NCBI GenBank assembly: GCA_964016885.1
Contig: OZ024742.1
Location: forward strand, 90,024,001-90,088,000
DNA: 64,000 nt
Reading direction: 5' to 3'
Source: Eledone cirrhosa
Taxonomy: Eukaryota
Positions 14,287-57,006 of this stretch are shown here, piece by piece; the first letter of the stretch is position 1, and each line of letters begins with the position of its first letter. Both the position numbers and the translations under genes were made by a program. The notes under the pieces are model-generated. The model was given only the letters and a program-made list of their open reading frames with translations. It had not been told where the DNA came from and made no database searches.

Positions 14287-14289
<3 letters not shown>

Positions 14290-15220: not shown

Positions 15221-15245
15221 AAATAATAATAATAATAATAATAAT

Positions 15246-16183: not shown

Positions 16184-16187
16184 TACT

Positions 16188-16232
<45 letters not shown>

Positions 16233-16234
<2 letters not shown>

Positions 16235-19644: not shown

Positions 19645-19669
19645 AAATAATAATAATAATAATAATAAT

Positions 19670-20830: not shown

Positions 20831-20861
20831 AATAACAATAACAATAATAATAATAATAATA

Positions 20862-24528: not shown

Positions 24529-24537
24529 AATAACAAC

Positions 24538-24629
<92 letters not shown>

Positions 24630-28500: not shown

Positions 28501-28628
28501 TCCATTAAAAAAGATGCACAAAGATACAGTAATGGACAACAAATTTCAGAAGTCCCATTTACTGTTGAATATGGAAAACACAGAAAAAGCAAAGCAGGTA
28601 AAAGTAACTGCAAAGAAGTAACTGCTAG
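25600..28628 (+). mobile_element. R4/Dong-like family A, copy A4 (intact 5' end, frameshifted, 3' part lost)
   Basis: The ORF starts at 25770 (MSNDKISY...) and is then collinear with A3 through the RT. It ends at the KELLQ position and is fused directly to B3. Confidence 0.9.
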
Positions 28629-31345
28629 ATTCGGTTGGAAATGGAGAGTGGAGTATGCCAGGCATACGAATCAGTGGGAAATGAATGTGAAGAGGTTGAG
28701 AGAACGGAGGAACCATCCGAAGCAGACAATAATCTGAATGCTGAAATAAATAATGCCTGGAACAAAGATACGGCCATTGAGGAGATGAATGCTGACGGGC
28801 TAGAACAAGATTTGGTTGATATACTAAACTTAATGGTAGATGAATTGAACAATGATAGTGGGAAACCTATGAACCTAAGATTTGTAGACAGGAAAAAGTT
28901 AAAAGAAACAACAGCTAAGGTAAACAAAGTCATCCCATACCTTGAGGCGAGGAGCCTTCACCAGTGCAACAATATCCTCAAAGCAACAGCAAATGCGGTG
29001 AGGAAATTACTTGGCATAAAAGCGAGAGGAAACAACAAACAAGAAAGATCAGAACCTTGGTGGAAGAAACGATTGAATGGTCAAATCAGGTAAATGAGAA
29101 ATGACATAGGAAAGCTTGTGTCACCACAGAATGGGACACTAAATAACATAGACACTAAAAATAGACTGGAAATAAAGTACAAAACTAGGAGGAAAAAGCT
29201 AAATATTATCATAGAGGAACTGAAGCAACGCATTGTAGCAAAGAGTGCAAAAATTAGGCGATACGAGAGCAGAGTCAGTCAGTATAGACAGAACCGCATG
29301 TTTGACAACAACCAGAAGATGCTGTTTGGACAGCTTGAGGGGAAATAAAGAGGCAACGACTTGATCCCTGAGGCGGAACAAACTAAGACATTCTGGAGAG
29401 AAATATGGGAGCAGAATGTTAAACGTAATGACCAGGCAGTGTGGATTGAGACAGTACAAAAGGAGATTAGTGAACAGGCACACCAACAAAGAGGAGACAC
29501 ACTGGTCTTGCCATGGGATGGATAGACTACAAAAAGGCATTTGACATGGTGCCTCATTCTTGGATCACCAAAAGCCTAGAGATCTTCAAGGTGGCAGATA
29601 ACATCAGACAGTTGTTAGGCAAATGTATGAATCCTGGAAAACAGTGTTAACATCAGCTGGCGAATGCTTGGGAGACGTGAAGATCAAGAGAGGTATCTTC
29701 CAAGGAGATAGTCTGTCCCCTCTGTTGTTTGTACTTGCCCTGATGCCTCTGACCATTATACTGCGAAAAGTGAGAGCAGGATACAAGTTGGGAAAGGGAG
29801 AGCTTACCATCAATCACCTCCTCTTCATGGACGATCTTAAGCTCTTCGAGAAGAGTGAGAAGGAGTTGGATGTGCTCGTTGACACTGTCCGTATTTTCAG
29901 CAATGATATATGTATGCATTTGGTATTAGTAAGTGTGAAGTCCTTGTGATGAAGAGGGGTAAATTGAGCAGAAGTAACGGAATCCAGGTACCAACAGGTG
30001 AGATGATAAAGGAAATTGACACTGAGGAGGGATACAAGTATTTGGGTGTTCTGGAGGCTGATGACATCAAGTACAAAAAAAATGAAGGAATTTATAAGAT
30101 CTGAATACATTCGGAGAGTAAGGAGCGTATTAAAGTCACATCTGAACAGTAGGAATGCCATAAATGCAGTAAATTCCCGAGCTGTGTCTATTATTTGGTA
30201 CAGTGCGGGAATTCTGAGATGGAATATTGCTGAACAAAAAGAAATGGATAGGAAGACTAGGAAGCTATTGACTATCTACAACATGTTCCACAAGAGGAGT
30301 GATGTCGATAGACTCTACTTAAGGAGATCTGAAGGTGGAAGAGATTTTATCAGCATAGAGGACCGTATTCAGATGGAGACAAACAACCTACACAAATACG
30401 TGACTGATAGTAAGAAGCCTATCCTCAGAATTGTACTGAAGGAGAGGACAATAGACCAGGGATGTCCAAGGAGGAAATAACAACAATGAGAAAGAGCAGC
30501 CTTCATGAAAATTCCCTTCATAGTTCCTTCTTTGAGAAAACTGAATTCAGAGATCCAGAGACATGGAACTGGTTGAAAAGAGGAGACCTTAAAAAGGCTA
30601 GAGAAGGAATGTTAATGGCTGCGCAAGAGCAGGCCCTCAAAACGAAGTGGTTGAAACACCATATTTACAAGCAGGAGGCTAGCCCACTGTGCAGGATCTG
30701 TGGAGAGAGAGAGGAGACTGGCTCACATTGTATCCGAGTGTAAACACCTAGCCCAGTCCCACTATAAGGGCTGGAGATATGATGTGATGGGCTGGAGATA
30801 TGATGTGATCCACTGGCACCTATGCAAAGTAAACAATTTACCACATTCTGAGAAGTGGTATGAGCATAAGCCAAAGTCGGTGAGAGAAAACGATCAGGTG
30901 AAGGTGCTGTGGGATTTTAGGATACAGACGGACAAGAAACTGGAGCACAATAGACCTGACCTGGTGGTTTTGGACAAGGAAAAAGATCGTGCCTGATTGT
31001 GGATGTGGCCTGCCCATTCGACACGAGAGTGCAAGAGAAGGAGAGGGAGAAAATTAACCGATACCAGGACTTAAAGTGGGAGGTAAAAAGGATTTGGAAC
31101 TGCCATGAAGTCAAAGTGGTCCCGATTGTCATAGGCGCACTAGGTACTATCTCAAAAGTTTCCAGGGATGGTTAAAGAAAATTGGCCCCGCCACGCTTTT
31201 TGGAACGCTTCAAAAGGCATGCTTGCTGGGAACAGCAAGAACCCTCCGATACATCCTGAATATCTGAATCTGCAGGTAGTGGCTTGATATTCATTTCAAC
31301 AAACTTTCCAGTTAACTAACATCAATGATTCAGACTCAAAGAACA
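28629..31345 (+). mobile_element. R4/Dong-like family B, degenerate copy B3 with internal deletion
   Basis: Collinear with B2 from about 21405. The B2 segment of about 22260-22683 is missing near 29490. It has many frameshifts and ends with the 3' UTR followed by (AAT)n. Confidence 0.88.
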
Positions 31346-31382: not shown

Positions 31383-34300
31383 TTTATTTATTAACCACAA
31401 GGGTTTACATAAAGTAGACATTAAGGCGAGTGCAGGACAATACAGGACGGTACAAATGGGCATTTCTGCGTTTAAAAAACAAAAACAGAGGATGTAACAA
31501 AAAATAACAATGAAAAATTCCCCAGTAGGGGGGAGTCTTCGGAGGGACATTTGTGGAGAAAGCCCAGTAAAAGGCCACAGTGACCCTGACCACCAAGGCA
31601 AGTGCCCTCTCCCAGTTTTCCACCTTTAATTTACAGATACGTACTCAGAGTAGGCCCATTCACTCGGGCCATTCTTGCTTCTCTCACCCATCTTTCAACA
31701 AAATGCTGGGAAGAGAGCACTTCCCTCTCTACTCTGATTTTCCTTTTCAAATGAAATTTGAAAAAGTCAATCAGGGCATCACCGAAGAGGTAAGTGCTCG
31801 TCTTCAGCCCTTTCAAACGTGTCCACCATACTATCTCTTTCGCCATGGCCACCAGACAGATAAAAAGTGCCTGCCCTTCCCGGCTAAAGGAAGAGGGCAG
31901 GGCAATCCTCACGATGGACTCAGATGATAGCCGGATGCGTCCTACACGCGACAGCAGTGTCCGACATAAACCCACAAGTCAGCAATTTTCGGACACTGGA
32001 CGAGTGCGTGCATGACGGTTTCGTCGCCCTGCGCACATCTCCGACATGCCCGGCTGACGGCACCTCCATGCCTGTAGAGTTTATCCCGAATTGGCAAGGC
32101 TCCTCGGTAGCACTGCCAGGCCAGAGATTTCTGGAAATTGTCCATAGGTTGCGGTCCGAAAGTTCTTCCGAAGAGATTGGCTAGTTGATTTTCGTCGACG
32201 CCTAGAGTTTCCCCAAGTACGTCGTCGCTCTTCCCCTCCACTAATCCTCTATAGAACGCCGAGGTGGAGTTTCCACCGATCACATTGCCCGATTGGTCGA
32301 GGGCTGTGAGCGCCTGAAGACATTCCAGTCTCCAGCCGCTCCCTCTCGGTCTTCGCTTGATCCAGGACTGCAGCTCCGTCAAGGAAACGAGCTGGGGAAA
32401 TACGCGTCCAGCAAACGGCGACCATACCTGATCACCGCCGAGGAAGAGGTGGAGATGTCGTAACCTGAGCGCGTGTCTGCGCATCATCAGCCACGGCATG
32501 CCCAGCCCTCCACGTAGCGGGTGTTGACAGCAGATGGACCCCCTGACCATCGGAGCGCGTCCCTTCCACAAAAAGCGAAAGAGCAAACGCTCCAGCGCAG
32601 TCAGCGGGGCTTAGGACAAGGTACGACGGTCAGGCGGTAGCAGATGACAGACGCGATGTACGCGTTAGCCACCTCCGCTCGACCTTTCAGGGATAGCTTC
32701 CTCTCCGCCCATTTCTGGGTGAGAGAAGCCACCCTGCTCGTCACCTCGTCCCAGTTTTTGTCCGTCTGGAGGTCCGGACCGAACCAGACCCCTAGCAATT
32801 TAACCGGTCTGTCCGTCCTGCGTCCGACGACGCTGTTGGACGGCATTGACCTGCCTCTCCAGGTGCCGAGCTTCAGGCCCACTGACTTTTCCTGGTTGAT
32901 CATTGCTCCTGTCACCGCTTCGTATTCTCTTAGTGTAGTGCCGATCGCCTCGATGTGTTTGGCGTTCGACACCACTACGGTGACATCGTCCGCATATGCT
33001 GACACGGATCTTCCGCATCCTAGTTCGCGCGTGACGCCCTTCAACGTCTCCAGTTTGTGCAGTAATGTCTCGAGAGTCAATACGTACAAGAGGGACGAGA
33101 GGGGACATCCTTGGCGGACCGAGTGCATGATGTTGAACGGTTCGGAAAAGTGACCGTTCACTCTCACCACAGAGCAGATGTCGCTGTGCATGGCAACGAT
33201 CCAGCCTCTGAAGACGGGCCCAAAGCCAGCCGCCCTCAGGACTGCCGCTAGGTAACGATGGTCGACCCTATCGTAAGCTTTCTACTGATCTTAATTGATC
33301 AAGGACCCACCCGTGCCAGGTTCCTTAGCTACCCTCTCTACGATGTATCGCATGAGGTGGAGGTTGTCGTGGATGGATCTGTCGGGAATGGCGCATGTCT
33401 GAGCCTCTCCCACCAGACCACCAACGACAAGCGCCAGCCTCTTTGCTAGCACCTTGGCCAAAATCTTGAACTCTGTGTTTATCAGAGTTATGGACCTGAA
33501 ATTATCTATGTTATCCCCCTTGTTCGGATCCTTTCTCAGCAGTGCCACCGCTCCTCGGCTCACAGAGCTGCCAATTCTCCCGTTCTTTTGCCAGTTGCAG
33601 TAGACGTCCGCCAAGAGGCCTCCGAACAAGTCTGGATTCTGTACGTAAAGTTCATAGGGCAGACCATCCAAACCAGGCGATTTACCCCTTGTGCAGCCAG
33701 TCATTGCCTCCCGTACTTCAGCGGCTATTATCGGCTTTTCGCAACACTACCCCTCAGTGGCCGAGAGCCGCGGCAGTCCGTCGAGGTAGACACTAAAGTC
33801 GATCCCTCGACCCGGCCCACCGCTGCCCCCGAACAGCTGAGCGAAGTGTCTCTGAAAAGCTTCACATATTTACCCGGGACCGAGTAGCAAGCGCCCGTCG
33901 TGGTCCACCAAACACCGCATCGTGGCTTTGTTGCCACGACGCGCCTCCGCCACTCGGGTCCATTGAACGGCTTTCGTCCCCTCGTGTCTGAGAGCACGCA
34001 CCCTAGCTCTGACAACGCAGCCTTCGTGCTTTGCATTGAAGAATTGGTCAAGGGCCAATTTCGCCGCAAGCACGTCGGTCGCGATGCCTTTGCTAACCGC
34101 CTCGTCTAATTTTCTAACTAGTTCTCCCTCTGCTCTATTTTTCTCTATTGCTAAAGCCTTACTAAACCTAATGGATTCTATTCTAATCGCTCTTTTCAGA
34201 GCAAACCACCACTTGTTGTTGACGATGGCCCCCGTCAACGCCCGCTTAACTAGTTCGCTAATCCGGTCTCTGTAGGCCTTGCGCGCTGGTAAGGACGCGT

Positions 34301-36743
34301 TTAGCTTCCAGTAGCCGGGTCCTCGTCTATGAAGCCTATCTAAGTCAAGCACACAGATAACGAATTTGTGGTCCGTGTAGCTGACTATCTTGAATTGTGG
34401 ACAGCCTATGCTAAACCTATCTATTTCCCTACAAAATACTCTATCTAGATATGATCTGGATAACCCTATGCGATTTGTCCAAGTCCACATTGGCACATTC
34501 GGGATATCCAATCTGTACCTGTCAGTCAGTTCAAAACGCCTGAGCAGGTTGGTGAGGCTCTTGCACCCTCCACCCATATCCGCTATTCCCACACAGTCCC
34601 AGCGTGCATCTAAGATCCCGTTCCAGTCGCCCACTAACACTAAAGAGCGGGACGTTCCAAGAAAGGTCTCCAGACGCCGGAAGAAATCAGTTCGCCCTAT
34701 TCCTGTCGGAGCATAGATGGCCACTAGCCTGAAAGCTTGCCCGTCTCGGCTGGTCACGTCCAGCACCACCAACTTACCCTCTGGGTCCAGGAAAATGGCC
34801 CGTATGGCGAGATCCAAACCTCTCCGAAAAAGCACAGCAACTCCTCCCCCGATCCAGGACGGCTGGGAGATGCGTACACATCGTAGCCGCCGAAGATCGG
34901 TGCGAAGACCCGTGCTTCGGAGATTCTGGTCTCGCTGATGGCCACTACATCTATGTTTAGTGACCTGAGGTCGTTGAGCAGGTGACCCTGCTTCCATGAC
35001 GACCCCAAGCCACGCGCATTTATGCTGCCTATTCTGAGTGAGGTCATGTTTAAAATGGAGTGGAAAAGATGGGAAAGACCAGCCACCGTACTTTTCGTAG
35101 AGGAAGGATGGTTTTTCCATCCCTTTTCATTTTATCGTCTGGTGAAGGGACCGTTGAATCGTCCCTTCGGCTGGTCGTCGGCTCTTCTATGAGTATGTCC
35201 GAATATACTCTCCGGTTGAGAGTCCCTCCTAGGTCTCTGAAATCACCAACTGCGTTGGGGAATTTCATTTTAATGTTTGTGTATTGTTTCTGTGCTATTT
35301 TTACCAGTCCTATGTTCGTTGGCGTTTTGATTGGTGCTGGTATTATGTAGACGTGCTGTGAAATGTCTGTGTGTTCAATTATGTAAGTCATTAGTTTCTT
35401 GTAGTGTGTATTTATTGCCGTGCATTTGTTTTTCTGGAGGTGGGGTGTGGTTCTGCTATTTTCTTGTCGTTGTTGCTTGGTGTGTGTATTTTGTTGTTGT
35501 GTTTGCGATGTTGGTGCTTGTGGTGGTGGTGTTGAAGGTGTTGTTGTTGTTGGCGGTGGGGTTGTCGCCGGTGGTGATGGTGGTGCTAGTGTGGGTGGTG
35601 ATGGTGTTGGTGGTGTTGCTGCTGTGAGTCTCTTTGCAGTAGCCTTTACCCTTTTTCATTTCTTTCCTCCCTTTTCGAAGGCGACGATGCTCTGCTTCTG
35701 CGTTTGTGCCTTCTTACGACCTTTTGCCATCCCTCTCCCACCTCACACTCCATGTCTGATTCTGTGAGATCGGGGAGGTGTACCAGCTCCACTCTTTCAC
35801 TTGTTGTTGTTGGTGATGTTTGTAGTGGAGTCTCTGTTGCAGCTGTATTTGGTATTACTGTTGTTGTTGTTAATACTTCCACTGCTGCTGCTGTTATGGA
35901 TTTCCGTGGATCGGGTATGGGTGACACGGACCTATCGTTCCAGCTTGCCGCTTGTCCTGTTGCTGGTAGCCGTGGAGCCGGTTTCGGAAGGAGGGGGGTT
36001 TTCTCCTTTCTCAGGGTCTTCTCGTTGCAGAAGGCCCTGAGGTGAGTCTTCGATCCACAGCGAAAAGATTTCGGGCGTTTCCCCTCAACACTTTTGGGCA
36101 GTTGAGTGCCGTTATCGAAGTCTATCACATCCGGGATAGCTTCGATGCACTCCTGGTTGGTTTGGATTAACATTTCAATGGAGGTGCCGACCCAATCTTC
36201 TCTTACTTTTTTCTGTACTTACAGTACAGTTGTTTTGTCCTCGATTCCGACGAGGACAGACGCTGCCGCAGTAGGAGGGCACCAACACCATTTCCTCGCT
36301 CCGTAGGGTCACTAAGGATTGAGCCTTTGCCTCCTGGGGTGTGGCAAAAAGCATGTCTACGGTGGCATATTTCTTGCCTCGGGTGATATGCGTTTTCCGC
36401 TGCCACACAGACCCTAAGGCTTTTTATATTTGCGCCTCTGTGGCTCTTTGAACCCTACGGGATTTTGTGCTTACTGTACGGTACGTGACCGTACAGTGCT
36501 GTTGGGTTCCGAAAAGTTTTTCGGCTACCTTGCAGATTGCTCGGTGTCCGGTTTACGTCACCATCTTCTTCGCTTCCTGTAATTCCTCATTTGTTATGAG
36601 GATGGTTTCCAGGTTCTTTGCGATACCTGCAAATGAGATTGGTTTTTCTTTGCTGCTGTTGTGTTGTTGTTGTTGTTGTCGTCAGAGCTGCTGTTACTTT
36701 TGTTGTTGCTGCAGGTACTACGATTACTGCCGCCGCCGCTGTT

Positions 36744-44403: not shown

Positions 44404-45512
44404 GCTAGAAAAATGCGTACAGCAAAAAAAAGTAATATTGTTGGAACAAACCTTTAAAAATACAGGACAAGGAAGTAAGATAAACCTTTAAAAATACAGG
44501 ACAAAGAACTAAGATAAAACTTTAAAAGAATAGGACAAGGAATATAAATTTTTACAATAATATTAGTGGCAAAATTCAATTGGTAAAAAATTGAGTTTCC
44601 ATCATTACACCAATTACAACTATGATGTTCCGCATGCATCCACTCCAACCATGATCACTTGTCTGTCATCTTTCCCGGTCCAACTCCTCGCGGATGACCC
44701 GGCGCAACTCGGACTGGGTCGGAGCAGGAACTGGAGGGGGAGAGGGAGGGGTACGGGTCTTGACTCTGGGACGATGACGGCGAGTGACCAAGGTGAATGG
44801 GCCCGTGTTCGACTCGGAATCCTGCTGGTCCTCGATGACACTTTGAGGCACGGTTGACGGTTCCGGACTGGCTTCATGGGCAGTGGTAGAAGGGCAGGTG
44901 GATAGGGCAGAGTGCTTCTTCCTGGGAGAGCACTTGAAGCAGGTGAAGCCGGCGCCGGACTCGTTGAACCACTTCCAGACAGCACTGGGCATGTTGGCGC
45001 AGCAATGATGAAAGTTGAAGCAGGCGACGAGGGGGGAGGAGGTGGAGGCGTTGGTGCAGGAGCAACAGACTGCTGATTTGGGAGTCATTGTAGCTGGGGG
45101 ATGCAGGCGCTGAGGGGGCTCGAGTAGAAGGGAAGAACAGAAATGAACCATGATGACTTTTCCTACATTTTTCCTGGCCCACTTCCTCATGAACCAATGA
45201 ACCAGTTGGTACAACTCGGACTTGGAGGAGGAACACAAGACAGGGATCAATTTCATTGTATTGATATTTCTCATTAAGTAATTTCATGTTACTCAAATAA
45301 ATCACTTTTATTTGATCAATTATCTATTTTTCCAATAAAATTTTTGCCACTAATATTATTGTAAAAATTTATATTCCTTGTCCTATTCTTTTAAAGTTTT
45401 ATCTTAGTTCTTTGTCCTGTATTTTTAAAGGTTTATCTTACTTCCTTGTCCTGTATTTTTAAAGGTTTGTTCCAACAATATTACTTTTTTTTGCTGTACG
45501 CATTTTTCTAGC
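44404..45512. mobile_element. Non-autonomous TIR DNA transposon (171-bp TIRs, probable TA target duplication) with a captured internal sequence
   Basis: 44404-44574 is, by eye, the exact reverse complement of 45342-45512. Each TIR holds three ~34-bp subrepeats. TA lies on both flanks, and the interior is GC-rich. Confidence 0.88.
44625..45090 (-). pseudogene. Captured CR1/L2-type ORF1 fragment with PHD-like finger
   Basis: MTPKSAVCCSC...VACFNFHHCCANM...FTCFKC, then a linker, then VIREELDRER, and after a frameshift DRQVIMVGV. This resembles the PHD + coiled-coil/RRM-start layout of CR1-group ORF1. Confidence 0.55.
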
Positions 45513-45802
45513 TAGTTTCCTATTTTTCAAGGCAATGCAAACAACAACTACTTAATTAAATAGTTATTACTTTAGTTACTTCTATCAAAAAATCCCAAAA
45601 ATGATGTTAATGAAAACTATAGGTGAAAGTGAAGCTATTCTTTTGTGACCTCTTAGTTACTTGTACCAATTTTGAATTTAATTCAAGCTACAGTGTCAGC
45701 CTGTGCATTGGAGTCACAGAAATAAGTTGAGATATTTTATCTAATTGGTACAAGCATCCACTCCACATGGCGGGGACATAGGTCAGATCGTGGAGCACTC
45801 AC

Positions 45803-46684
45803 CTATCTTAAAAATATTAAAAAATATCTGCTCTCTTTCTGTTTTCCTTCTTCCCCTGTCCTCAATCTGTGCGCCTTTTGATGAAATGCATGCTGACTTT
45901 TGCCCTCATCTCCTGTCCTCAATCTGTGTGCCTTTTGATTCCATGCATTCTGACTTTTGCCCTCATCTCCTGTCCTCAATCTATGCGCCTTTTGATTCCA
46001 TGCATGCTGACCTTTGCCATCATCTCCTGTCTTCAATCTGTGCGCCTTTTGATGTAATGCATGCTGACTTTTGCCCTCATCTCCTGTCCTCAATCTGTGC
46101 GCTTTTTGGTATGCATTATTCATATGTTTTGCTTGTTCTGATTGTCTTTTTTCTTTTATTTCAGCAGCTTTCCGTTTTTTATACTCCCTATTCCTAATGG
46201 CATTTTTTCTCCGTTTTTCATTCTCTTTATGAATTTTTTGATCTTTGGGACATTCGGAAGCACTATCAGTCTCATTGAATTCAAATTCAGGTCCAGGATT
46301 TAATTCAACACAACCGATAATAAGCAATGATAAGATCAGTGCACGTGTTCTATATTTCTGATTGGAAATCGGGTAAATTCGTTTATTGGATTTGTAAAAA
46401 GCCGCCTGAATGTGAATTTCATCATTCGAATTGCCCGATTGTGGAATTGTTTCATTCGAAATGGAAATATTGCATTTTCGCGCCAGGCAAAAAAGTAATA
46501 AGCCGATCAAAAAGCCGCGAAACGTATATGGTGACTTTTTTCGAAAGCCGCGAAACGTATGAAGTGACCTTTTGCGATTTTTTTTGCGACCATTTTGGCG
46601 AGACTTTTGCAGGGAAACAAATTTTTCATTTGTAATAGTCAAAATAAATAAGCCGATAAAAAAGCCGAGAGACGTCATTTTCAT
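45803..46684 (-). CDS. TE-associated ORF with 2A-like motif (LLIIGCVELNPGP) and 19-aa repeats
   Basis: 293-aa ORF. The 2A-like motif lies at 46289-46327. QKAHRLRTGDEGKSQHAxx repeats about 4.5 times (57-bp tandem repeat at 45855-46110). Confidence 0.5.
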   Translation of the reverse strand: MKMTSLGFFIGLFILTITNEKFVSLQKSRQNGRKKNRKRSLHTFRGFRKKSPYTFRGFLIGLLLFCLARKCNISISNETIPQSGNSNDEIHIQAAFYKSNKRIYPISNQKYRTRALILSLLIIGCVELNPGPEFEFNETDSASECPKDQKIHKENEKRRKNAIRNREYKKRKAAEIKEKRQSEQAKHMNNAYQKAHRLRTGDEGKSQHALHQKAHRLKTGDDGKGQHAWNQKAHRLRTGDEGKSQNAWNQKAHRLRTGDEGKSQHAFHQKAHRLRTGEEGKQKESRYFLIFLR

Positions 46685-47009
46685 ATGTCAAATGAGCACA
46701 CTATTCGCACCTATCGCAAATGAGTTCACTACTCGCACCTATCGGTACAAAAAATAGCACAACTATTCACAACTATTAGTACAAATCCAAATGATTTTCT
46801 GAATTTCTAGTATATCAATCAGCGACTGCTTTGAAAGAGAACAATGCAGTGAGTGATTACTCATTTGAATATAAATAGAAGACAACCTCAACTAGTTTGC
46901 AACGTGTGACCACTTATCGCGAGATAGGAGAACATAATAGCTCCTAATTAGCTCAATGATTAATGTTTACTGCCACATTGTATCAACATTTAAAATTCAA
47001 ATTCAAAAA

Positions 47010-47575
47010 AATAACCGCAGTCACTGGGGGGGGGGGGGTTCAAATAACCACCGCACCCCGAATAACCGCAGTCACTAGGGGGGGTTCGAATAAGACCCTC
47101 ACCCCAAATAACAGCAGTCACTGGGGGAGGGTTCGAATAAGCGCCTCACCCCGAATAATCGCAGTCACTGTGGGGGGGGGTTCGAATAAGCGCCGCACCC
47201 CGAATAACCGCAGTCACTGTGGGGGGGGGGGGGGGTTCGAATAAGCGCCTCACCCCGAATAATCGCAGTCACTGGGGGAGGGTTCGAATAAGCGCCGCAC
47301 CCCGAATAACCGCAGTCACTGGGGGGAGGGTTCGAATAAGCGCCGCACCCCGAATAATCGCAGTCACTGGGGGGAGGGTTCGAATAAGCGCCGCACCCCG
47401 AATAACCGCAGTCACTGGGGGGAGGGTTCGAATAAGCGCCGCACCCCGAATAATCGCAGTCACTGGGGGGAGGGTTCGAATAAGCGGGGGGGGGGGGGTT
47501 CGAATAAGCGTCTCACCCCGAATAATCGCAGTCACTGGGGGAGGGTTCGAATAAGCGCCGCACCCCGAATAACCC
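47010..47575. repeat. 48-bp GC-rich minisatellite (about 11 units)
   Basis: Unit GGGGAGGGTTCGAATAAGCGCCGCACCCCGAATAACCGCAGTCACTGG with variable G-runs and no unique spacers. Confidence 0.95.
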
Positions 47576-47930
47576 CTTATCCTCCTCTGACCGGTCCCAA
47601 GAGATGCATCAAATGCACAGAGCGTCACCCTTACTCACTCACTTACTCACTTGAACACAGTTTTTTTCAGCAAACTTTGATCATAACTTTTTTTGTGCTG
47701 AACGAAATTTCGAGATTTTTAGCTTAAGAGATGTGCAATGATTTACTCTCCATGCTCATATAACTTTCATGTGATTTTGATAATCGGAAGACATTCTAAT
47801 AATGCTGTAAAGAGACGATTGCCAACGAAATCACTAAGACAACAATATTACTAAACCGACTACCGTCGGTTTAGGATTAGAGTTAAATAAGGTTCATATG
47901 AATTATCTAAGAATGAGTTTTACACACATA

Positions 47931-47964
<34 letters not shown>

Positions 47965-48088
47965 GATATATATATATATATAGATAGATACATATATATA
48001 TATGTGTGTGTTGTATATATATGCATAAATACATATATATATGTGTGTGTATATATGCATAAATATATATATATATATGTGTGTGTGT

Positions 48089-48195
48089 GAGTGGTCAGAG
48101 AATTGGATTCGCAATCGTGAGGTTGTGAGTTCGATTCTTGCACCAGGCGATGCGTTATGTCTTTGAACAAGACACATTATTTCACATTGCTCCTT
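48089..48195 (+). mobile_element. Second tRNA-derived SINE family (fragment)
   Basis: GAGTGGTCAGAG...GAGTTCGATTC (B box), followed by a TGTCTTTGAACAAGACAC core-like segment. Confidence 0.6.
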
Positions 48196-48334
48196 CTACC
48201 TGGAGTTGCAATCGATAATATAGTGCAATAATATGGTGCATAGTTATATAAACATGTTTTAACGGTATATACTCCTTTGTATTCATTTCTTTTATATATA
48301 TATAATCTATCTATTTATAAGACTGTTTATATTG

Positions 48335-48400
48335 TATTTTGTCTGAAGAAGGCATAACATATTTTTAATATGATATCCCCGAAATATATATAATGAAATA
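48335..48400 (+). ncRNA. Hammerhead ribozyme-like motif (family H5)
   Basis: TATTTTGT-CTGAAGA-(aggcataacatatt...aatatgatatcccc)-GAAA-TATATA-TA|ATGAAATA. Stem I has G-U pairs, stem III is palindromic, and stem II is partly decayed. Confidence 0.6.
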
Positions 48401-48738
48401 AATATGGTTTTATAAATATAATTTCCATTTATTTAATATCGTAAATATACTCCAAATACTTGTTGAGTGCTTTTATATCAGTTATAAATATTTACTCGTT
48501 GTAACCCAACAATTTAAATAAAACTTTGCATATATATATATATATATATATATATCAAATATTAGTGGTGTGAGAGTCAAGAGTGGAACTGCATATTGTT
48601 CTGGTCAGTCAGTAGTGTCAATTTTTCCTTGGTTTAGTCTGGAAGAAGAACCTTCAAAACTGACCACCGGAGCTAAATGTCAACTTTAAAATGACCCCTA
48701 AAGTAATGGGAAATTACGAAAACAAGTAGCGTAGTTAC

Positions 48739-48794
<56 letters not shown>

Positions 48795-49242
48795 GAAATA
48801 AAATGACAGGAGGCTGGACTGGTGTAAATCCTTGGAAAATGTATTATACTATGACCGGGTTCCATATGAATCCGGTGATATCATCAGGTATTGGAATATA
48901 ACAAAGCAATATGTAAAAAACCATGGGTCCGAGAAATCAGAGACAGAGACAGAGAGGACGACTGAAGCTACTAATGAATATCTGGTGAAGGGGCGAAGGC
49001 TTATAATGTACTACCACCTCTCCGTCAAAGAAGAAGGGGAAGAAAGAAAGAAAGGGAGAAAGAAGTGTAGTATAAGGGTCATACTACATTCATGCTAGAA
49101 AACGCCGCGAAAAAATGCTACCCCAAAGAATCTATAATGGGTGTCTGTATGGTCTAACGTGTGAACCGAAGATTGGAACGTTAAACTTATGTTGCGAGTT
49201 ATAATTCTGGTCTATATATATATATATATGTATATATAAGTA

Positions 49243-49466
<224 letters not shown>

Positions 49467-49499
49467 TAGCGAAGATAATACGTCAGATGTCGTTATGCA

Positions 49500-49734
49500 G
49501 ACAGCTAGATATATAGACAGATATGATAAGGGCTTGACGGAGATCAATAACTGGCGCCTCACACCTCTTTAACGACAGAAAATTGTAAAATAAAAGCTGC
49601 AGTTAGTATCTTTAGACCGGAACGAATATATAAATGCAAGTTTCAAGTCAATCGGAGTAGAAATATGGATTTGTATAGACTTTGAAAAAATGAGGACACA
49701 CACACACAGACAACACAAGTTTTATATATATAGA
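49500..49734 (-). mobile_element. Non-autonomous Helitron 5' end
   Basis: The minus strand begins A|TCTATATATATAAAACTTGTGTTGTCTGT, similar to the terminus at 62821. The 3' boundary is uncertain. Confidence 0.55.
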
Positions 49735-49998
49735 TATTTGTGTATGTGTGTGTGTGGGGGGCAGTGTGCATTTTTATATAAACATGTTTTAACGGTATAT
49801 ACTCCTTTGTATTCATTTCTTTTATAATCGGTCGGATTATTTTCTCGCCCACTAAATATTAACGCTTCTAATATTTAACCCTGTAGGCACGAGTATTGAG
49901 CACATTTGCACAAACTATTGGCAACTAAATATATGTATCGCTTATCTTTCCGTTTTTTTCTCTCTCTCAATATTTAAACATTCTATATATATATATAT

Positions 49999-50872
49999 AT
50001 AAGGAAAAAAGATGAAATCTAAAATGCAACAGGTGTATTTTTTTAATAAAATATATATATTTATTAGGTTCCTTTACCGATTTTGCAGTTCTTCTGCTTT
50101 TCAAAAGTAGAATTGAGATGGAAGGTCTGCGGTTTTTCTCACATCTGGCTGGTCTTTGAATGTTACTATGGAAAAAAGTGGCTCGAAATGCCAGGTTTTT
50201 TAGAGAAGTAATTCTAATTTAGAGAAGAAAGTCTGAATTCTGACACCCCAGTGAACCAGCCATACTCACTGAACCAGAACAAATCTCCCAATCCCATTTC
50301 TCTTGACCATTATATTTTTGTTTGGCACAAAATTCTCTAGAAGGCTACAATATAAATTCCCAAATACGGGCGCGAAATTTACTGAATTTGTTCACGTGAC
50401 AGTCATAATTTCATTTATAACCAATCAAATTAATTTTAAAAAAAAGCCTTCGTGAGCCACATTTTTTAAGTAAAAAGAAATTCAAACAAACTGGCGCGAA
50501 AGCTGAGGTGCTTATTCCCGTGACTGTATCAACCAACCAAACCTCACACATATATGAAAAACAACTTGAGCCCCCCTCCCCCTTATTTGAAGAACTTTGT
50601 AACGCGAACTGGCGCGAAATTTATTATACTTATTCACCAACCAATTAAATTACTTCTCTAAAAACCTGGCATTTCGAGCCACTCTTTTCCATACAAAACA
50701 AGTAACATTCAAAGACCAACCAGATGTGAGAAAAACCAGAGACCCTCCATCTCAACTGTACTTTTGAAAAGCAGAAGAACTGCGAATCCGGTAAATGAAC
50801 CAAATAAATATATATATATTTAAAAAAAAAAAGACTGCAGTTGCATTTTCGATTTCATCTTTTTTCCTTATA
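49999..50872. mobile_element. PLE-like inverted-repeat cassette (family H6), arms about 49999-50213 and 50648-50872
   Basis: The arms are reverse complements of about 215 bp, each with a variant hammerhead-like fold. The interior has three ~120-bp degenerate units. Confidence 0.75.
50761..50797 (+). ncRNA. Variant hammerhead-like motif with TTGAAAA core (U3-A8), family H6
   Basis: CTT-TTGAAAA-GCAG-aagaa-CTGC-GAAt-CCGG-TA. A sister copy lies at 50069-50112 (-) and a related motif at about 50945-50982 (+). Confidence 0.5.
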
Positions 50873-51103
50873 CATTCACTCGTGTAGGACACCTCGGTTA
50901 TTTTTCATTTTGTAAAATAAACCTCACTTTCTAATATATATATTACTTTTGAAAAGCATTTGAAATGCGCAACCGGTTAAAAACTTAAAACTTTAAACTA
51001 ACACTGAATACTAACCATTACTTATTACTAATTTATACTTATTCCTAATTAAACTATTTTTCACTGGAAAAAATCTGTCAGCGTTTTCTTTTCCTTTTTC
51101 CTA

Positions 51104-51193
<90 letters not shown>

Positions 51194-51201
51194 AATTTCG
51201 A

Positions 51202-51259
51202 ATACCTGATGATCTCACCGGATTCATAGTGAACCCGGTCACTGAAATGATCATAGTAT
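51202..51259 (+). ncRNA. Hammerhead ribozyme-like motif (family H2)
   Basis: ATAC-CTGATGA-tctcACCGGattcatagtgaacCCGGTcact-GAAA-TGATCA-TA|GTAT, within module 51195-51445, which is homologous to 2090-2340. Confidence 0.7.
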
Positions 51260-51443
51260 AATAAACCTTTTAAGGAACTACACCAGTCCAGCCTCCTGTT
51301 ATTTTATAATAATTAACTCCGTACTCGCACCACCAACAACTCAAACGAAAACGGGTGAATTGCATTACGTCGAGTTCTCTCCCTAATATTACATCAAGGT
51401 TGACTATACGGAATGACCAGTTCTATCCAGTGGTGAACCAACA

Positions 51444-51478
<35 letters not shown>

Positions 51479-51483
<5 letters not shown>

Positions 51484-51538
51484 AAAAGGTATGACCCCGA
51501 CGGCAGAGCTCTGCCGTCGGGGTCATACCTTTTCCTAT
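51479..51538. repeat. Perfect 60-bp palindrome derived from a hammerhead-bearing module (family H8)
   Basis: ATAGGAAAAGGTATGACCCCGACGGCAGAG|CTCTGCCGTCGGGGTCATACCTTTTCCTAT. Non-palindromic relatives lie at 54824-54935 (+) and 41157-41200 (-). Confidence 0.95.
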
Positions 51539-51614
51539 TTCCCACTCTACTACACTAAGTATTGAGTACTCTGTTGCGTTATGGTCCATCTGGTACCTTA
51601 CCACAATTCTTTCG

Positions 51615-51653
<39 letters not shown>

Positions 51654-51676
51654 TAAGTTATTTATTTTGGAAAGCC

Positions 51677-51727
51677 AGATTCCTGATGATTTCTAAAGAA
51701 TGAAACACTTCTAGTCCTGTAGAATCT
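51677..51727 (+). ncRNA. Hammerhead ribozyme (family H3), one stem III mismatch
   Basis: AGATTC-CTGATGA-tTTCtaaaGAAt-GAAACAC-ttctagtc-CTGTA|GAATCT. Confidence 0.7.
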
Positions 51728-51737
51728 CATCTATATT

Positions 51738-51805
<68 letters not shown>

Positions 51806-52149
51806 GCGTGTCTGTGTATGCAATGTGTATGTTATACATGTGTCTAGTAGTTTTCCTATGTATTTATGTTCGATGTTATATATTTGTTTTGTTTTATCGT
51901 GTATAAATATAAATCTGCCTAAGTATTGCTGAATGATGTATGAGTATGTAAGTAATAGAATATGTGTGCTTATTCGGGATTAGATGTACGTCCCTTTTTT
52001 GTAGTGTATTTCTCTTTGTTTTTATATTCTTCTCTGTGTTTGCGCTCGTTTGCGTTTCTTTGTATTTTCTTCCTTCGATTAATGGCTGTAAATGAATTCT
52101 CTATATTGATTTGTATAAGAGAAAATGTTTCTTCATCTTCTTAACTCAT

Positions 52150-53400
52150 ATATCCATGGTGACATCATGCAGGTAGTATCTTCAAACACACTTTCTGGGG
52201 TCCAAAAAGTTGCAAACATTTTCACGTGATCCAGCTAGATTCCCATGTGAAACTAACCGATCTCATGAATACTATCAAAACATCTTGCTTGAGGTCTACC
52301 TCTGGATCATCTCCCTATTGATGTGGCCCGCACAATCTAACCATATGTTGGTAGTACGGGCGCTGTGATCTTCCGAGCGGTGAAGTTTGAGCGAATTTCC
52401 GATCTCCGAACTACGCAGCCTATCCAGTCATTAATCAAGATCCATGACCATAGGAAGGTTTAAGCACCAACACCGAATTGAAGATAGCAAGTGTAGCTTT
52501 TTCACGTACCTCGTGAACCTTCTGATGACCACGTGCTGAAGATGGCGCATTATTGCAACAGCTCCTGCAATTCTTGCATTAAATTCAGCCTCCAGTCATC
52601 TATCAATCGTGAAAATGGGTCCGAGATACTTGAATGAATCCACCTACTTCAGTGTAACTCCATTCACATGCTTAACATACTACGCAAATTTATTCATTTC
52701 TGCCCGAGAGCAATCGACTGCAAGGCTAACCTGTGCATATTGGAGAGTAGCTTCCGACGAGATATGTAACAGTAAGTGGACTGCAAATATCAGCTACTGA
52801 TCCTACACTCACCGGTTTTGATACCACTTCCAGCCCAGCTGCACATGTCAATCATGTTCATAAAGATTATGAACATGTGAGGTGATAATACGCACGCTTA
52901 ATAGAGTCCGACTTCCACATTGAATGGATTCGACTAATCCCCATTTATCAGAACACAAATAATAGGGCATTTGCATGAAATCCAAGGCAACACGCTGTTC
53001 TCAAATGAATACTCTTTTTAGAAACTTTAACAACACATTCCGTGGAAGTCTAACCATTAACATTTCGAGGTCCATACATTTCTAGGCAACATTCATACGA
53101 TTCCTCGAAGACCTACTGCAGTGTAAATATTTAGTCGGCTGGCTATGCTATGTCTGCGGTGAAGGCCTCACTGTTCGCCAGCTAATTTGAACTCAACAAT
53201 ACTCCTTTATCTATTTGCCAGCCATTTAGCATAGACTTTACATGAGCAGCTTAACACCAGGGTACTCCTTAACTACTTAGCCTTGAATGCCTTTACTATC
53301 ACTGTTCCCACCTTTCTTAAGTTTCGGAGTGCAAGAAGGAAGTTTTATTTCCAAGCCAAGCTTTGTCAGCCTTTTTCATTACCCGATTGAAACCTTTAAA
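52150..53400 (-). mobile_element. Highly decayed RTE-like LINE RT relic
   Basis: The minus strand shows residual motifs such as SNPFNVEVGLY*ACVLSPHMFIIFMN (GVRQGCVLSP-like) and VDSFKYLG. Confidence 0.55.
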
Positions 53401-54179
53401 CATCTGAATGACCAAGAATTCTTCTAGACACCTAGAGCCACATCTGCATAATGTAATAGCTGAAATGGACACAGGCGGGATGAACAGTCAGCACTCAGTT
53501 TCAAGTTCCTCAGTTTGTTTAGGGAGTTCTCTGGATTTGGATGCAATATCACCCGCATACCTGGTTGACACCTCAACATCAGTCAGTCAGCGGTTCTTCC
53601 CTTCAACTGTAGGTTGTACTTGTCAATTTCTAGATTTCCTTGATTTTAGTTATTCTGAGTTTGCTGATAACTAGATGGTGATTAATTGACAGCTTAGCTC
53701 ACCAAATCCTTTAGCACTAACCTCCAGTGCAGAATCGAGGAGACCAAAGACAATAAATATGGATTACTCACTTCTGTCCAGATTTCCCTTATATATATCG
53801 TTGTGCTAGAGAAGGGTTTTCATAATAGTGTTTAACATCGAAACAATACTCAATTTTCAATATTTCAATTACTGCTTGTCAGCAAGTCTATATTTCACTG
53901 ATGTTTTTATATATGTTTTGCACACATATACACAGTGCTTTACACGTTATGTATGTGCATAGATGTGTCTACCTCAGTGTATATACGTGAACACGGTAGC
54001 TGTGTATCTATTTATGCACATGGAATCTCAGAATTATTTCTGAAGTCATATCATGCCAAGGCGAGATCACAGATGTTCATGCAGATGATTAAGTTCAATT
54101 GCTATTTATCAGATACTTCGGGTATGATTTCAATACAAAATAGCTGAATAATGAGACAGGACACTAACCAAGCGTGACT

Positions 54180-54735
54180 GGGGGAATTGTGGCAACTGTT
54201 GATGCAAAGAAAGTAAAATTAATGGCTACGATAAAAAGGGCACGATCAATTAACATCGAAGTGGGTGAAGAAACATCTGCATGGCAAATATTTTGCCCGT
54301 AGCAAAAAGCTGATGTTGATGATGTGGACTAGAGGTACCCATATCAGAGACTACACCTAATGGCTAGAGGCACAGAGTGAGGGCTTCATCTTAGCTGCCC
54401 AATATTAAGTTAAGTGTCAATTCTGAAATGATGCGATTTGAACAGTGGGCCATTTAATCTCTGCATGTAAAGTTTTAGCATCAGTAGCATTTAAATCAAG
54501 GCATGACAAAGATTGCCAATATTTACATTGGTTAATATGTTGGCGTTATCAAATCAAACCTGACGAGTAGTAAAAGTATTGACTTGATGGTATAACTGAG
54601 GGAGAAAATGTAACGATTATTTGCGACTTTCCTGTACATACAGATAGGACAGCCAAAGCTAACAAACCGGATATTATTGTATATGACCAAGATAACTCAG
54701 TGTGTTTATTGATTGATATGAGCATCCCATGTCTC
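54180..54735 (+). mobile_element. R4/Dong-like (family C-related) relic
   Basis: KHLHGKY, SEGFILAAQ and ICDFPVHTDRTAKANKPDIIVYDQDNSVCLLIDMSIP. Confidence 0.75.
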
Positions 54736-55042
54736 ATTCTATACATTGGTAACCCAGTTAACACAACATATTGCTTAAATTTACAGCTAAAAATATATAC
54801 ACACATATCCAGATCTAGCTGTCGAAACGGCCGGAGCTCAGCCGTCGGGGTCCTGACTCTTTTCCTATTACCCACTCTACTGCCCTAAGTATTGAGTTCT
54901 CTGGTGCGTTATGGTCCACCTGGTATCGTACCACACCTTATTTGTTCTTTATACGCACACATACACACCAACACACACACACGTATATATATACATACAC
55001 ACACTAACACACACACATACACACGCACATATATATATACAT

Positions 55043-55162
<120 letters not shown>

Positions 55163-55202
55163 CAATAAAGTAAAATATATCACTATAGCATAATATTTAT
55201 TT

Positions 55203-55380
55203 AATTGGAAGTATCGGTAGAGGGTTGGACGCCATGCTTTGACGCATAGAGTTACAGCCCTTTCCATTCTGAGTTCAAATACCGCCGGGGTCAACTTTGC
55301 CTTTCGTCCTTATGTGTTCGATAAAATAAAGTACCAGTAATGTACTGGGTAATTGCTGGCCTTGTGCCAAAGGTAGAAAC
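55203..55380 (+). mobile_element. tRNA-derived SINE
   Basis: Homolog of 38472-38657, with the B box GAGTTCAAATACC and the same core and tail. Confidence 0.85.
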
Positions 55381-55632
55381 AATTATATATATTTCAAGGA
55401 TACTAGTTTATAGTATGCTTTTATCAGATAAAATATAATATATGATGTATAAGATAGTGACATGCCCCCAAAATAGACCTCATACGGTCAATTTAAAATG
55501 GGCATGCGATTTAAAATTTCTAAATTTCTTAGCATGTAAATTAATTGAGAGAGAGATTGCTTTGTAGAGTGCTTCATATCTGTTATGAACATAACTCTGC
55601 TGAAAACTTGTCAACAAAGAATATAACTCATT

Positions 55633-55673
<41 letters not shown>

Positions 55674-55700
55674 TAATAACACAACAGTTAGTTCACCATA

Positions 55701-55740
55701 CCGAGAACAATTGTTTCACCTTAGCGGATCTTCAGCTCGG
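55701..55740 (-). ncRNA. Minimal hammerhead ribozyme (family H7)
   Basis: Minus strand: CCGAG-CTGAAGA-tCCgctaaGGt-GAAA-CAATTG-TT|CTCGG. Stem I is a perfect 5 bp and stem III is the palindrome ACAATTGT. (TA)n lies about 30 nt downstream. Confidence 0.8.
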
Positions 55741-55949
55741 ACTATTCATGGTTAAATGGAGCAGGAAGAACAGCCGTATGAACGCGCATGCGCAGAAACG
55801 CTCAGTACACCCAAGCGATACAAAGCCACGGGCGAAAGTCTGGAAAAGATGTTCGAGTTGATTAGAAAATTAGAATGTTTTTGTTATTCAATCCGGAGCC
55901 TTGTAGTTATGCAAGAGGTGTTTCCAGACATGTGGACAACATGAGAAGA

Positions 55950-57006
55950 TTGCATATTATGAATTTAGGCAATCGCTATTGCGTAATCTCCGTCGACCCC
56001 TTGCAACTTTTAGTAGTTGATGGTAGAAGGCTCGCAAATGGGTTGCTTCTTCGTACACGTGACAATGCGGCCTTTTACGGGATGTTTTAATGCACCTCAG
56101 CGCCACTTCAATGTCTGTTTGGGCAATTATAGCCATTTTCTTTGTCTGCGCTGAAATGCACTATTCTTCGCTCCACCGCTTCTATGGCTTCCGCTGAGAC
56201 AGTTCAGTTGGTCCAGGTTTTCTCTTGTTTGATGAGCTTTCAAGCCTGGGACAACTTTTTAGTTTTGTCAGTGAAGTCCATGACTCTTTTTGGCTGCCGC
56301 CACAGCGAAAGTGTGTTTGTTTTTGGCAATGTTGTCGTTGTTGGTAATGTTGTTGTTGGTGTTGTCATTGTTGTTGGTGTTGTCGTTGTTCCTGTTGGTG
56401 TTGTTGGTGTTGCTGCTGTGGCAGTTGGTGATATTTTTGGTGCTGCTGTTGTTTGTTCTCGGTGCAGTTGGTGAAGGTGCTGTTGCTGTTCATGTTCTTG
56501 TTGGTGGTGTTGGTAAATTCGTTTTTGTTTTTGTTGTCATTGTTTGTGTTGACTGTGTTTTAGTTGTCGCTGTTACAGCTGTTGTCATTTTTAAAAAAAG
56601 TTAGTGTTCTCACTGTTGCTAATGCTGCAGGCATTGTTTATGTTGTTTGTGGTGGTTTTGTTAAATTTATTGTTGCATGTTATGTTTGTCATAAATATAT
56701 ATTTTTTTTACTTTTGTTAGCAATGGTGTTCGTTATGTTTGCCGTATCCCTCCTCTCAGCGTTGAAGCCGCTGTGACACGAGAGCAGAATTAAAGTTGAG
56801 GGGGAGAGTGGCTCAGCCATTTCTTTTTTTTTTTTTCGAGTAAAAAGTTTTTATCAACGAAAGTTCAAATATTTGGTCTTCACAGGGCATAGACTGCAGT
56901 CTTACGACCCTTTTCACAAATTGCAACAATCATTACAAATAAAAACAAAACTTAAATTTTACCACTTTTGCAGAGCCCACAAAACTCGTCTACATGTCTG
57001 ACAGCC
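55950..57006 (-). mobile_element. Decayed 5' part of another Tx1/L1-like element (tentative)
   Basis: The 5' end abuts (AAT)n and resembles the Tx1 5' end (..GGCTCTG..). An ATG near 56820 follows an A-run, then a Thr/Asn-rich low-complexity region like ORF1. Confidence 0.4.

What the first reader, a model, noticed from the sequence alone, without database searches (positions are those of the whole stretch)
49999..50982. Candidate hammerhead family with a compensatory U3-A8 core (TTGAAAA instead of CTGANGA)
Seen: both arms of the inverted repeat read CTT-TTGAAAA-GCAG-aagaa-CTGC-[GAAT or AAAA]-[C/T]CGG-TA-aa. Their consensus gives GAAA plus the palindromic stem III ACCGGT and a GUA triplet. A third motif with a different stem II (TTGAAAA-GCATT-tga-AATGC-GCAA-CCGG-TT, about 50945-50982) keeps the same core. 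Established: positions 3 and 8 form a tertiary Watson-Crick pair (C3-G8), and a U3-A8 swap preserves pairing. Inference: this is a whole TE family using the rare variant core, which standard CUGANGA searches miss. Each copy here carries a private mutation in GAAA, so these copies are probably inactive.
Basis: partly seen in the sequence, partly recalled or inferred. Interest (0 to 1): 0.8.

Follow-up and report, generated by a model that had tools for sequence, protein, structure and literature searches.

The report
Penelope hammerhead lineage with mutated core
These are end fragments of two Penelope-like jumping genes whose small hammerhead RNA motif carries an already published U-A core pair, but one lineage with over 10,000 genomic copies has also swapped a normally fixed core adenine for cytosine, so it likely cuts weakly or not at all and would let one test whether these elements need their ribozyme.

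Summary
The three motifs are real. They lie in pseudo-LTRs of Penelope-like retroelements (RT + GIY-YIG), not in a MITE. The two arms are a forward and an inverted 5'-truncated copy of family A. The intact motif TTGAAAA-GCAG-aagaa-CTGC-GAAA-CCGG-T occurs 11,625 times in this genome.

U3-A8 is not new: Cervera & de la Pena 2014 report about 1,300 S. mansoni hits and list the same UUGAAAA core. It is in 15 of 44 motifs in related elements, and this scan found it before in another genome.

The third motif's GCAA (A13C) is not private. It is fixed in a sister lineage with its own RT-endonuclease gene: 10,638 exact copies with C13 against 131 with another base. None of the 44 outside motifs has it, and my searches found no report. 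The block around it is conserved between subfamilies.

Best reading: a dimer-type mini-hammerhead, likely weakened by A13C but still kept. Cleavage is untested and no RNA run was listed.

The parts
49983..50001 (.). (TA)n target microsatellite at the left end of the insertion
   Evidence: sequence; family copies end in (TA)n
49999..50213 (-). Inverted, 5'-truncated family A pLTR copy without the tail
   Evidence: 9 of the 26 non-paralogous loci L005-L030 also hold an inverted pair with the tail on one copy only
50072..50107 (-). Decayed U3-A8 mini-hammerhead: U3 at 50104, G12A at 50084, C15.2U at 50080
50226..50943 (+). Forward 5'-truncated family A copy: 3' UTR/pLTR that follows the RT-GIY-YIG ORF in longer copies
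   Evidence: ORF upstream in L053, L054, L055, L057
50369..50645 (+). Repeated promoter-like module: GGCGCGAAA at 50369, 50493, 50611 (E2F-like, label recalled) and CCAAT at 50421, 50641
   Evidence: (4 in window, shuffle mean 0.10); similar motifs in subfamilies C and D; function untested
50761..50796 (+). Decayed U3-A8 mini-hammerhead: U3 50764, stem II 50771-50783, G12 50784, A15.1U at 50787, predicted cut after 50793, stem I pair broken at 50796
   Evidence: 50787 reads A in over 99% of summed contig depth
50876..50943 (+). About 68-nt tail, present on only some copies
   Evidence: copy ends cluster at 50869/50875 and at 50943 (loose ends)
50942..51102 (+). 5'-truncated pLTR fragment of subfamily B (C13 lineage) inserted into the TA run at the end of the family A copy
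   Evidence: present in paralogue L002, absent from L003 and L004, so it is the later insertion
50944..50983 (+). U3-A8 + A13C mini-hammerhead: U3 50949, stem II GCATT/AATGC 50956-50968, G12 50969, C13 50970, ACCGGT palindrome 50972-50977; this copy has own changes at 50946 and 50978
   Evidence: no other letter at 10% or more at 50970 in three contig sets

Best explanation
The stretch is a compound insertion of pseudo-LTR fragments from two Penelope-like retroelement lineages, each carrying a type I mini-hammerhead motif with a U3-A8 core that is predicted to cut the element's RNA only as a dimer, and the second lineage has fixed A13C, which likely weakens rather than abolishes cleavage. Shown: the pLTR sits downstream of an RT + GIY-YIG ORF and, in full-length C13 copies, also upstream of it. 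Copies land in (TA)n, are 5'-truncated, and often come as an inverted pair with a tail on one side. Family A has GAAA; subfamilies B, C and D have GCAA. Inferred: a promoter in the upstream pLTR makes an RNA with two motifs. Their ACCGGU palindromes pair to form the helix III that a monomer cannot form. U3-A8 replaces the C3-G8 tertiary pair, and cleavage would fall after G-U-A, about 195 nt before the ORF1 start, possibly with help from the element's protein. In the C13 lineage the fold is likely still selected, at a lower rate. The two arm copies in the window (G12A; A15.1U plus a broken stem I pair) are likely dead.
For: Element identity: GIY-YIG (E 8e-7) and RVT_1 (E 2e-6, below Pfam's cut-off) in the 583-aa ORF upstream of the arm in L053. 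pLTR-ORF-pLTR copies with C13 in both repeats: L101 with a 654-codon open RT frame, and L106/L107. Counts: family A 11,625 A13 against 54 non-A; GCATT-stem lineage 10,638 C13 against 131 non-C. Of 9 differences between the A and D majority motifs, 4 form two compensatory pairs (stem I C-G to T-A; stem II G-C to T-A), 2 keep or add a pair, 2 are at the distal stem I end and 1 is A13C (read by eye). Between subfamilies C and D the 42-nt block has 0 substitutions in 41 aligned sites (one loop II indel) against 25 in 190 flank sites, Fisher p 0.006. The computed cofold pairs two copies through ACCGGU. A13 mutations inhibit 10-100-fold, against over 100-fold for G12, A14 and A15.1 (PMC4075628 passage citing earlier work). 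A6, in the same softer class, has a natural active variant A6C (PMC3088659 section 8; PMC7151607 passages).
Against: No cleavage or RNA data exist here. The conserved block reaches about 15 nt upstream of stem I, so the conservation is not specific to catalysis. B against D is not significant when only the downstream flank is used (p 0.48), and B's upstream flank may be non-homologous. All 44 motifs found in related elements, and all 56 rows of Cervera Fig. S3, keep GAAA (one reads AGAAA), so A13 is normally held by selection. Metazoan mini-hammerheads cleave poorly even when intact (PMC4209133), so a further 10-100-fold loss could leave nothing useful. In a pairwise scan of one type III hammerhead only the G3-C8 swap rescued the 3-8 pair (PMC9901934 passage). 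For subfamily C the lowest-energy monomer fold is a long hairpin that swallows the core. In Anolis Poseidon, ribozyme mutants did not affect insertion in vitro (PMC11167929).
Confidence: 0.5

Rival explanations
1. A13C killed cleavage, and the C13 lineage keeps the fold only as a non-catalytic element (RNA dimerisation through ACCGGU, or a binding site for the element's protein). Cleavage is then dispensable for Penelope mobility in vivo.
For: The C13 lineage is as abundant as the intact one in the same genome (10,638 against 11,625). Ribozyme mutants did not block insertion in vitro and no RNA-seq reads ended at the cut site in Anolis. Naiads spread without canonical hammerheads, and the authors suggest these motifs may only parasitise the elements (PMC8557442 passages).
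Against: Every other core base (U3-A9, G12, A14, A15.1, U16.1, H17) is unchanged across A, B, C and D although the proteins are about 55% identical. The one changed base is among the more tolerant ones.
Confidence: 0.3
2. The block is conserved mainly as a 3' splice site of a 5' UTR intron: branch-like CTCAA, U-rich tract, then AG at A9-G10.1. The hammerhead core is partly a passenger, so A13 drifted.
For: ATCTCAA upstream of stem I is kept in all four subfamilies without a pairing partner in the ribozyme. In D. virilis Penelope the intron's 3' end maps to helix I (PMC4209133).
Against: It does not explain the conserved ACCGGT palindrome or the compensatory stem changes downstream of the AG. 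B has no clear GT at the donor-like position seen in A, C and D. There is no RNA evidence.
Confidence: 0.1
3. The C13 lineage uses a shifted register: C is an inserted base after G12, and the motif reads G12-C-A13-A14 with a C15.1-G16.1 pair and cleavage after G-G-U.
For: U insertions in the GAAA segment are known natural variants. The downstream A-run allows stem I in this register.
Against: It needs loss of the A15.1-U16.1 pair, which is costly. The motif aligns base for base with family A without a gap.
Confidence: 0.05
4. The inverted arms are the terminal inverted repeats of a MITE, and the hammerhead likeness is chance.
For: About 215-bp inverted arms flanked by TA.
Against: The spacing and content between arms vary from locus to locus, single copies are common, and the arm follows an RT-GIY-YIG ORF. 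A relaxed descriptor found 44 motifs in related elements against 1 in three shuffled sets.
Confidence: 0.01

Closest known systems
Minimal type I hammerheads of metazoan Penelope-like elements, incl. the S. mansoni U3-A8 families (Cervera & de la Pena 2014, PMC4209133; parts 1-2 of 4 of the text and parts 1-2 of 3 of the supplement read)
   Same: Position in the pLTR, short stem I, G10.1-C11.1, palindromic helix III that needs a dimer, U3-A8 core (row S. mansoni(4) has UUGAAAA), and pairs on opposite strands 100-700 bp apart.
   Different: No extra base after A9 and a 4-nt palindrome (CCGG). The B/C/D lineage has GCAA, while the 56 published representatives keep GAAA. Copy number is about 25,000 in one genome.
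Natural hammerhead core variants (Perreault et al. 2011, PMC3088659, section 8 and passages read; Naghdi et al. 2020, PMC7151607, passages)
   Same: U3-A8 covariation, and single core substitutions such as A6C that keep low or ion-dependent activity.
   Different: No A13 substitution is named in the text I read. The figures were not visible, and a search of 11 supplement files for A13/C13 returned nothing. Those variants are not fixed in a family of over 10,000 copies.
Neptune/Nematis-type EN+ Penelope-like elements (Craig et al. 2021, PMC8557442, passages)
   Same: C-terminal GIY-YIG, CX2-5CxxC linker (CGRSNCGTC), (TA)n targets, inverted 5'-truncated copy, tail at one end; an ORF1 separated by a frameshift is mentioned in the Fig. 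1 legend.
   Different: The tail is about 68 nt in family A and about 50 nt in C, against 30-40 bp. The exact clade was not fixed with reference sequences.
Anolis Poseidon PAc hammerhead (Frangieh et al. 2024, PMC11167929, parts 1-2 of 4 read)
   Same: pLTR hammerhead just upstream of the coding region; tail made of the start of the element body.
   Different: PAc has C3-G8 and its start codon lies inside the motif. Here ORF1 starts about 220 nt after the core.

Membership tests
EN+ Penelope-like element | RT followed by a C-terminal GIY-YIG endonuclease in one coding region | tested here: met
   family A; C13 lineage, about 55% identical; Pfam RVT_1 match, endonuclease part by tblastn
EN+ Penelope-like element | Pseudo-LTRs flanking the ORF | tested here: met
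   Direct repeats on both sides in L101 and L106/L107. For family A only the 3' pLTR and inverted 5' copies were seen in the 9 long loci.
EN+ Penelope-like element | 5' truncation, inverted partner copy, tail at one end, (TA)n insertion | tested here: met
Neptune versus Nematis clade | CX2-5CxxC linker and CCHH motif | tested here: met
   read in the L053 translation; both clades share these motifs
Neptune versus Nematis clade | RT phylogeny with named reference elements | not tested
   the tree holds no named clade references
Type I mini-hammerhead | Core 3-9 with a Watson-Crick 3-8 pair | tested here: met
   U3-A8 in A, B, C, D; C3-G8 on the same scaffold has 0 matches
Type I mini-hammerhead | G12-A13-A14-A15.1, family A | tested here: met
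   11,625 against 54 at position 13; not met in the two window arms
Type I mini-hammerhead | G12-A13-A14-A15.1, subfamilies B/C/D | tested here: not met
   C13 in 10,638 of 10,769 exact matches
Type I mini-hammerhead | Stems I and II with G10.1-C11.1, palindromic helix III, NUH triplet | tested here: met
   two compensatory pair changes between lineages
Type I mini-hammerhead | Match to an Rfam hammerhead model | tested here: not met
   none among 43 matches up to E 5 in window 45000-56000
Type I mini-hammerhead | Site-specific self-cleavage | not testable with these tools
   needs an assay; no RNA run was listed
MITE / DNA transposon | Fixed unit bounded by terminal inverted repeats | tested here: not met
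   variable arrangement, single copies, linked RT ORF
Non-LTR retrozyme | Non-coding head-to-tail tandem units each with a hammerhead | tested here: not met
   no tandem array at the locus; dispersed copies tied to a coding element; definition from bioRxiv 10.64898/2026.07.22.740005 part 1

The most novel reading that the evidence does not exclude
UUGAAAA...GCAA is a working hammerhead with a doubly changed catalytic core (U3-A8 plus C13), kept by selection in more than 10,000 copies of a self-encoding Penelope lineage. It would be a natural family-wide substitution at A13 of which I found no report. Beside its equally abundant GAAA sister lineage in the same genome, it is a ready natural experiment on what the Penelope ribozyme is for.
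Probability: 0.35. Interest if true: 0.62.

Novelty: new variant of a known kind. Interest (0 to 1): 0.42.

Why it matters
Whether Penelope-like elements need their hammerhead is open: in vitro the mutants still insert, yet the motif is kept almost everywhere. This genome holds two lineages of similar size on the same scaffold, one with GAAA and one with GCAA. If C13 cleaves, the hammerhead consensus and search descriptors need widening, and GAAA-based screens miss whole families. If it does not, this is in vivo evidence that cleavage is dispensable while the fold is kept.

Tried and rejected
Rfam scan: no hammerhead model matched. RNA evidence: no RNA holder listed, which says nothing about expression. 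The three contig sets laid come from one sample that may be the source of the assembly, so they are not independent. Viral contigs held no match to the scaffold pattern. A C3-G8 sibling on the same scaffold was not found in the genome. The MITE and retrozyme readings were rejected (see rivals and membership test). The tree is the quick version only, because the careful search did not finish. It places family A nearer to an Octopus bimaculoides protein and to P0001/P0002 than to subfamily C, and scatters U3-A8 labels among C3-G8 ones, but DNA around P0001-P0013 was not available, so the origin of A13C cannot be dated. Literature: 'hammerhead'+'A13C' 0 papers; 'hammerhead'+'GCAA'+'Penelope' 0; U3-A8/C3U 3 listed. 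Lunse et al. (Penelope hammerhead variants, RNA Biol), Nelson & Uhlenbeck 2008, Przybilski & Hammann 2007 and Martick & Scott 2006 are not held and were not read. The first could contain A13 variants. Figures of all papers were invisible, and the eLife pairwise-mutagenesis supplement was listed but not read. A possible pairing of the 5' leader with loop II was looked at by eye only (3-4 bp, no covariation) and is not claimed.

Full report
Observation. The arms are inverted copies about 86% alike. A core-plus-stem pattern has 2 matches in the window against 0.03 expected. Rfam gave no hammerhead among 43 matches up to E 5 in 45000-56000.

What the arm is. A search of the 3.0-Gb own genome with the right arm gave 1,450 first-look candidates, of which 40 were scored, at 93-100% identity. 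In the 30 fetched loci the arm is the 3' end of a longer unit that starts at variable points. It ends either at 50869/50875 or 68 nt further at 50943, and it often has an inverted partner. Nine of the 26 non-paralogous loci hold an inverted pair with the tail on one copy only. Upstream lies an ORF with RT and GIY-YIG domains (L053, 583 aa; GIY-YIG E 8e-7, RVT_1 E 2e-6, the latter under Pfam's cut-off). It has the CX2-5CxxC linker and CCHH residues that Craig et al. give for Neptune and Nematis elements (passages). Its closest named relatives are an Octopus bimaculoides protein (74% over 71% of the query) and bivalve proteins near 48-50%, so the host is likely a cephalopod. The inverted 5'-truncated copy, the one-sided tail and the (TA)n target are the described layout of Penelope-like insertions, and Cervera & de la Pena note hammerhead pairs on opposite strands 100-700 bp apart. 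The arms are therefore pseudo-LTR fragments, not terminal inverted repeats.

Family A motif. Copies read CTT-TTGAAAA-GCAG-aagaa-CTGC-GAAA-CCGG-TA-AAG. The exact 29-mer from U3 to U16.1 occurs 11,625 times, and 54 times with another base at 13. Among 76 fetched family A segments, 53 have intact GAAA-CCGG-TA (this set is biased by the two decayed queries and includes re-fetched paralogues). The left arm has G12A and C15.2U; the right arm has A15.1U and a broken stem I pair. G12 and A15.1 changes cost over 100-fold (PMC4075628 passage), so both arms are likely dead. GAAT is shared by three segmental paralogues and L024, and G12A is a CpG transition that recurs at six unrelated loci, so these changes are decay but not strictly private.

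U3-A8 is known. Cervera & de la Pena describe it in S. mansoni Penelope-like elements, about 1,300 hits, and their Fig. S3 row S. mansoni(4) has the same UUGAAAA core. Perreault et al. report natural U3-A8 covariation and earlier proof of activity in vitro (section 8). In 120 loci of related elements from metagenome and genome contigs, a relaxed descriptor found 44 motifs, several of them repeats of one family: 23 C3-G8, 15 U3-A8, 5 U3-G8 and 1 C3-A8. Three shuffled sets gave 1 hit. One result runs against activity: in a pairwise scan of a type III hammerhead only the G3-C8 swap rescued the pair.

The third motif is a different lineage with A13C. The stretch 50942-51102 is a separate repeat (730 candidates). 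It was inserted later into the TA run at the end of the family A copy: it is present in paralogue L002 and absent from L003 and L004. Its exact motif occurs 59 times with GCAA and 0 times with GAAA. With its subfamilies C and D, which differ in loop II, the GCATT-stem lineage has 10,638 exact matches with C13 and 131 with A, G or T. This lineage encodes its own RT-EN, about 55% identical to family A. L101 and L106/L107 are pLTR-ORF-pLTR copies with C13 in both repeats, and L101 has a 654-codon open RT frame. All 44 outside motifs read GAAA although the descriptor was free at 13, as do the 56 rows of Fig. S3, one of which reads AGAAA. So C13 is the derived state. No C3-G8 version of the scaffold exists in the genome. 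Three contig sets from one sample show A at 50787 in over 99% of depth and no second letter at 50970; they may be the assembly's own sample.

Is the C13 motif still selected? Majority sequences of subfamilies A, B, C and D were built from 72, 24, 28 and 27 segments. Between C and D the 42-nt block has no substitution in 41 sites and one loop II indel, against 25 in 190 flank sites (p 0.006). B against C gives 1 of 41 against 18 of 92 downstream (p 0.005). B against D is not significant downstream (p 0.48). Between A and D there are nine differences: four make two compensatory pairs, two keep or add a pair, two are at the far end of stem I, and one is A13C. The conserved stretch also runs about 15 nt upstream of stem I, which catalysis alone does not explain and which looks like a branch point and U-rich tract. 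Computed cofolds pair two motifs through ACCGGU in all three sequences folded (A, B, C), while the lowest-energy monomer of C is a hairpin that buries the core.

Mechanism. Shown: the anatomy, the counts and the pairing potential. Inferred from the Penelope literature: transcription from the upstream pLTR, dimerisation through helix III, and cleavage after G-U-A about 195 nt before the ORF1 start, perhaps protein-assisted as in Anolis Poseidon. A13 changes cost 10-100-fold, less than most core positions, and A6C in the same class is a natural low-activity variant. I therefore give 0.5 to a weakened but kept ribozyme. I give 0.3 to a dead core kept for structure, which fits the in vitro result that ribozyme mutants still insert and the success of hammerhead-less Naiads. 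The splice-site reading gets 0.1, a shifted register 0.05. There are no RNA data.

Novelty. The fixed A13C was not found by my searches, but figures were invisible and Lunse et al., the largest survey of these variants, is not held. Verdict: new variant of a known kind, interest 0.42.

Noticed in passing
L101:5207-6571 (-) and 3312-5273 (-); also L100, L106, L145, L146, L149, L152, L222: Full-length elements have an upstream ORF1 of about 435 aa, with no Pfam match, that overlaps the RT frame by -1. A T TTT TTA heptamer lies at the overlap, with no Met in the RT frame ahead of the conserved start. The same heptamer is in four outside relatives (T TTT TTG in a fifth) and is visible by eye in family A copies. 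Candidate programmed -1 frameshift; a frameshifted ORF1 is mentioned for some Penelope clades in the Fig. 1 legend of PMC8557442. No strong downstream hairpin in this genome's copies.
   Followed up: partly
window 50369-50645: The pLTR has repeated GGCGCGAAA (E2F-like, label recalled) and CCAAT motifs, also in subfamilies C and D, which suggests a cell-cycle-linked internal promoter.
   Followed up: partly
window 51481-51623 and 54859-54953; L057 about 5680-5900: A perfect palindrome of about 58 nt between TA runs, followed by a 95-nt arm that recurs at 54859. A similar TA-flanked palindromic element is in L057. Probably fold-back fragments of another TA-targeting element.
   Followed up: no
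G000:C3 near 89.35, 89.74, 90.07 and 90.20 Mb (L002, L004, L001, L003): The whole compound insertion sits in at least four segmental paralogues that share flanks and mutations; only two carry the later subfamily B insertion.
   Followed up: partly
window 14176-28737 and 33870-35126: Several LINE-like reverse transcriptase ORFs (1111 aa at 16170-19505, 658 aa at 21961-23937) separated by (AAT)n runs, and an endonuclease/exonuclease/phosphatase ORF on the minus strand.
   Followed up: no
window 47010-47557: GC-rich 48-bp tandem array of about 10 copies, next to a 57-bp array at 45855-46108.
   Followed up: no
L114 and L115: In inverted pairs both motifs share the same rare base at position 13 (A in L114, T in L115), so both arms of such a pair likely come from one template.
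   Followed up: no
L221-L264: Penelope-like elements sit in contigs of bacterial metagenome-assembled genomes, likely host DNA contamination.
   Followed up: no
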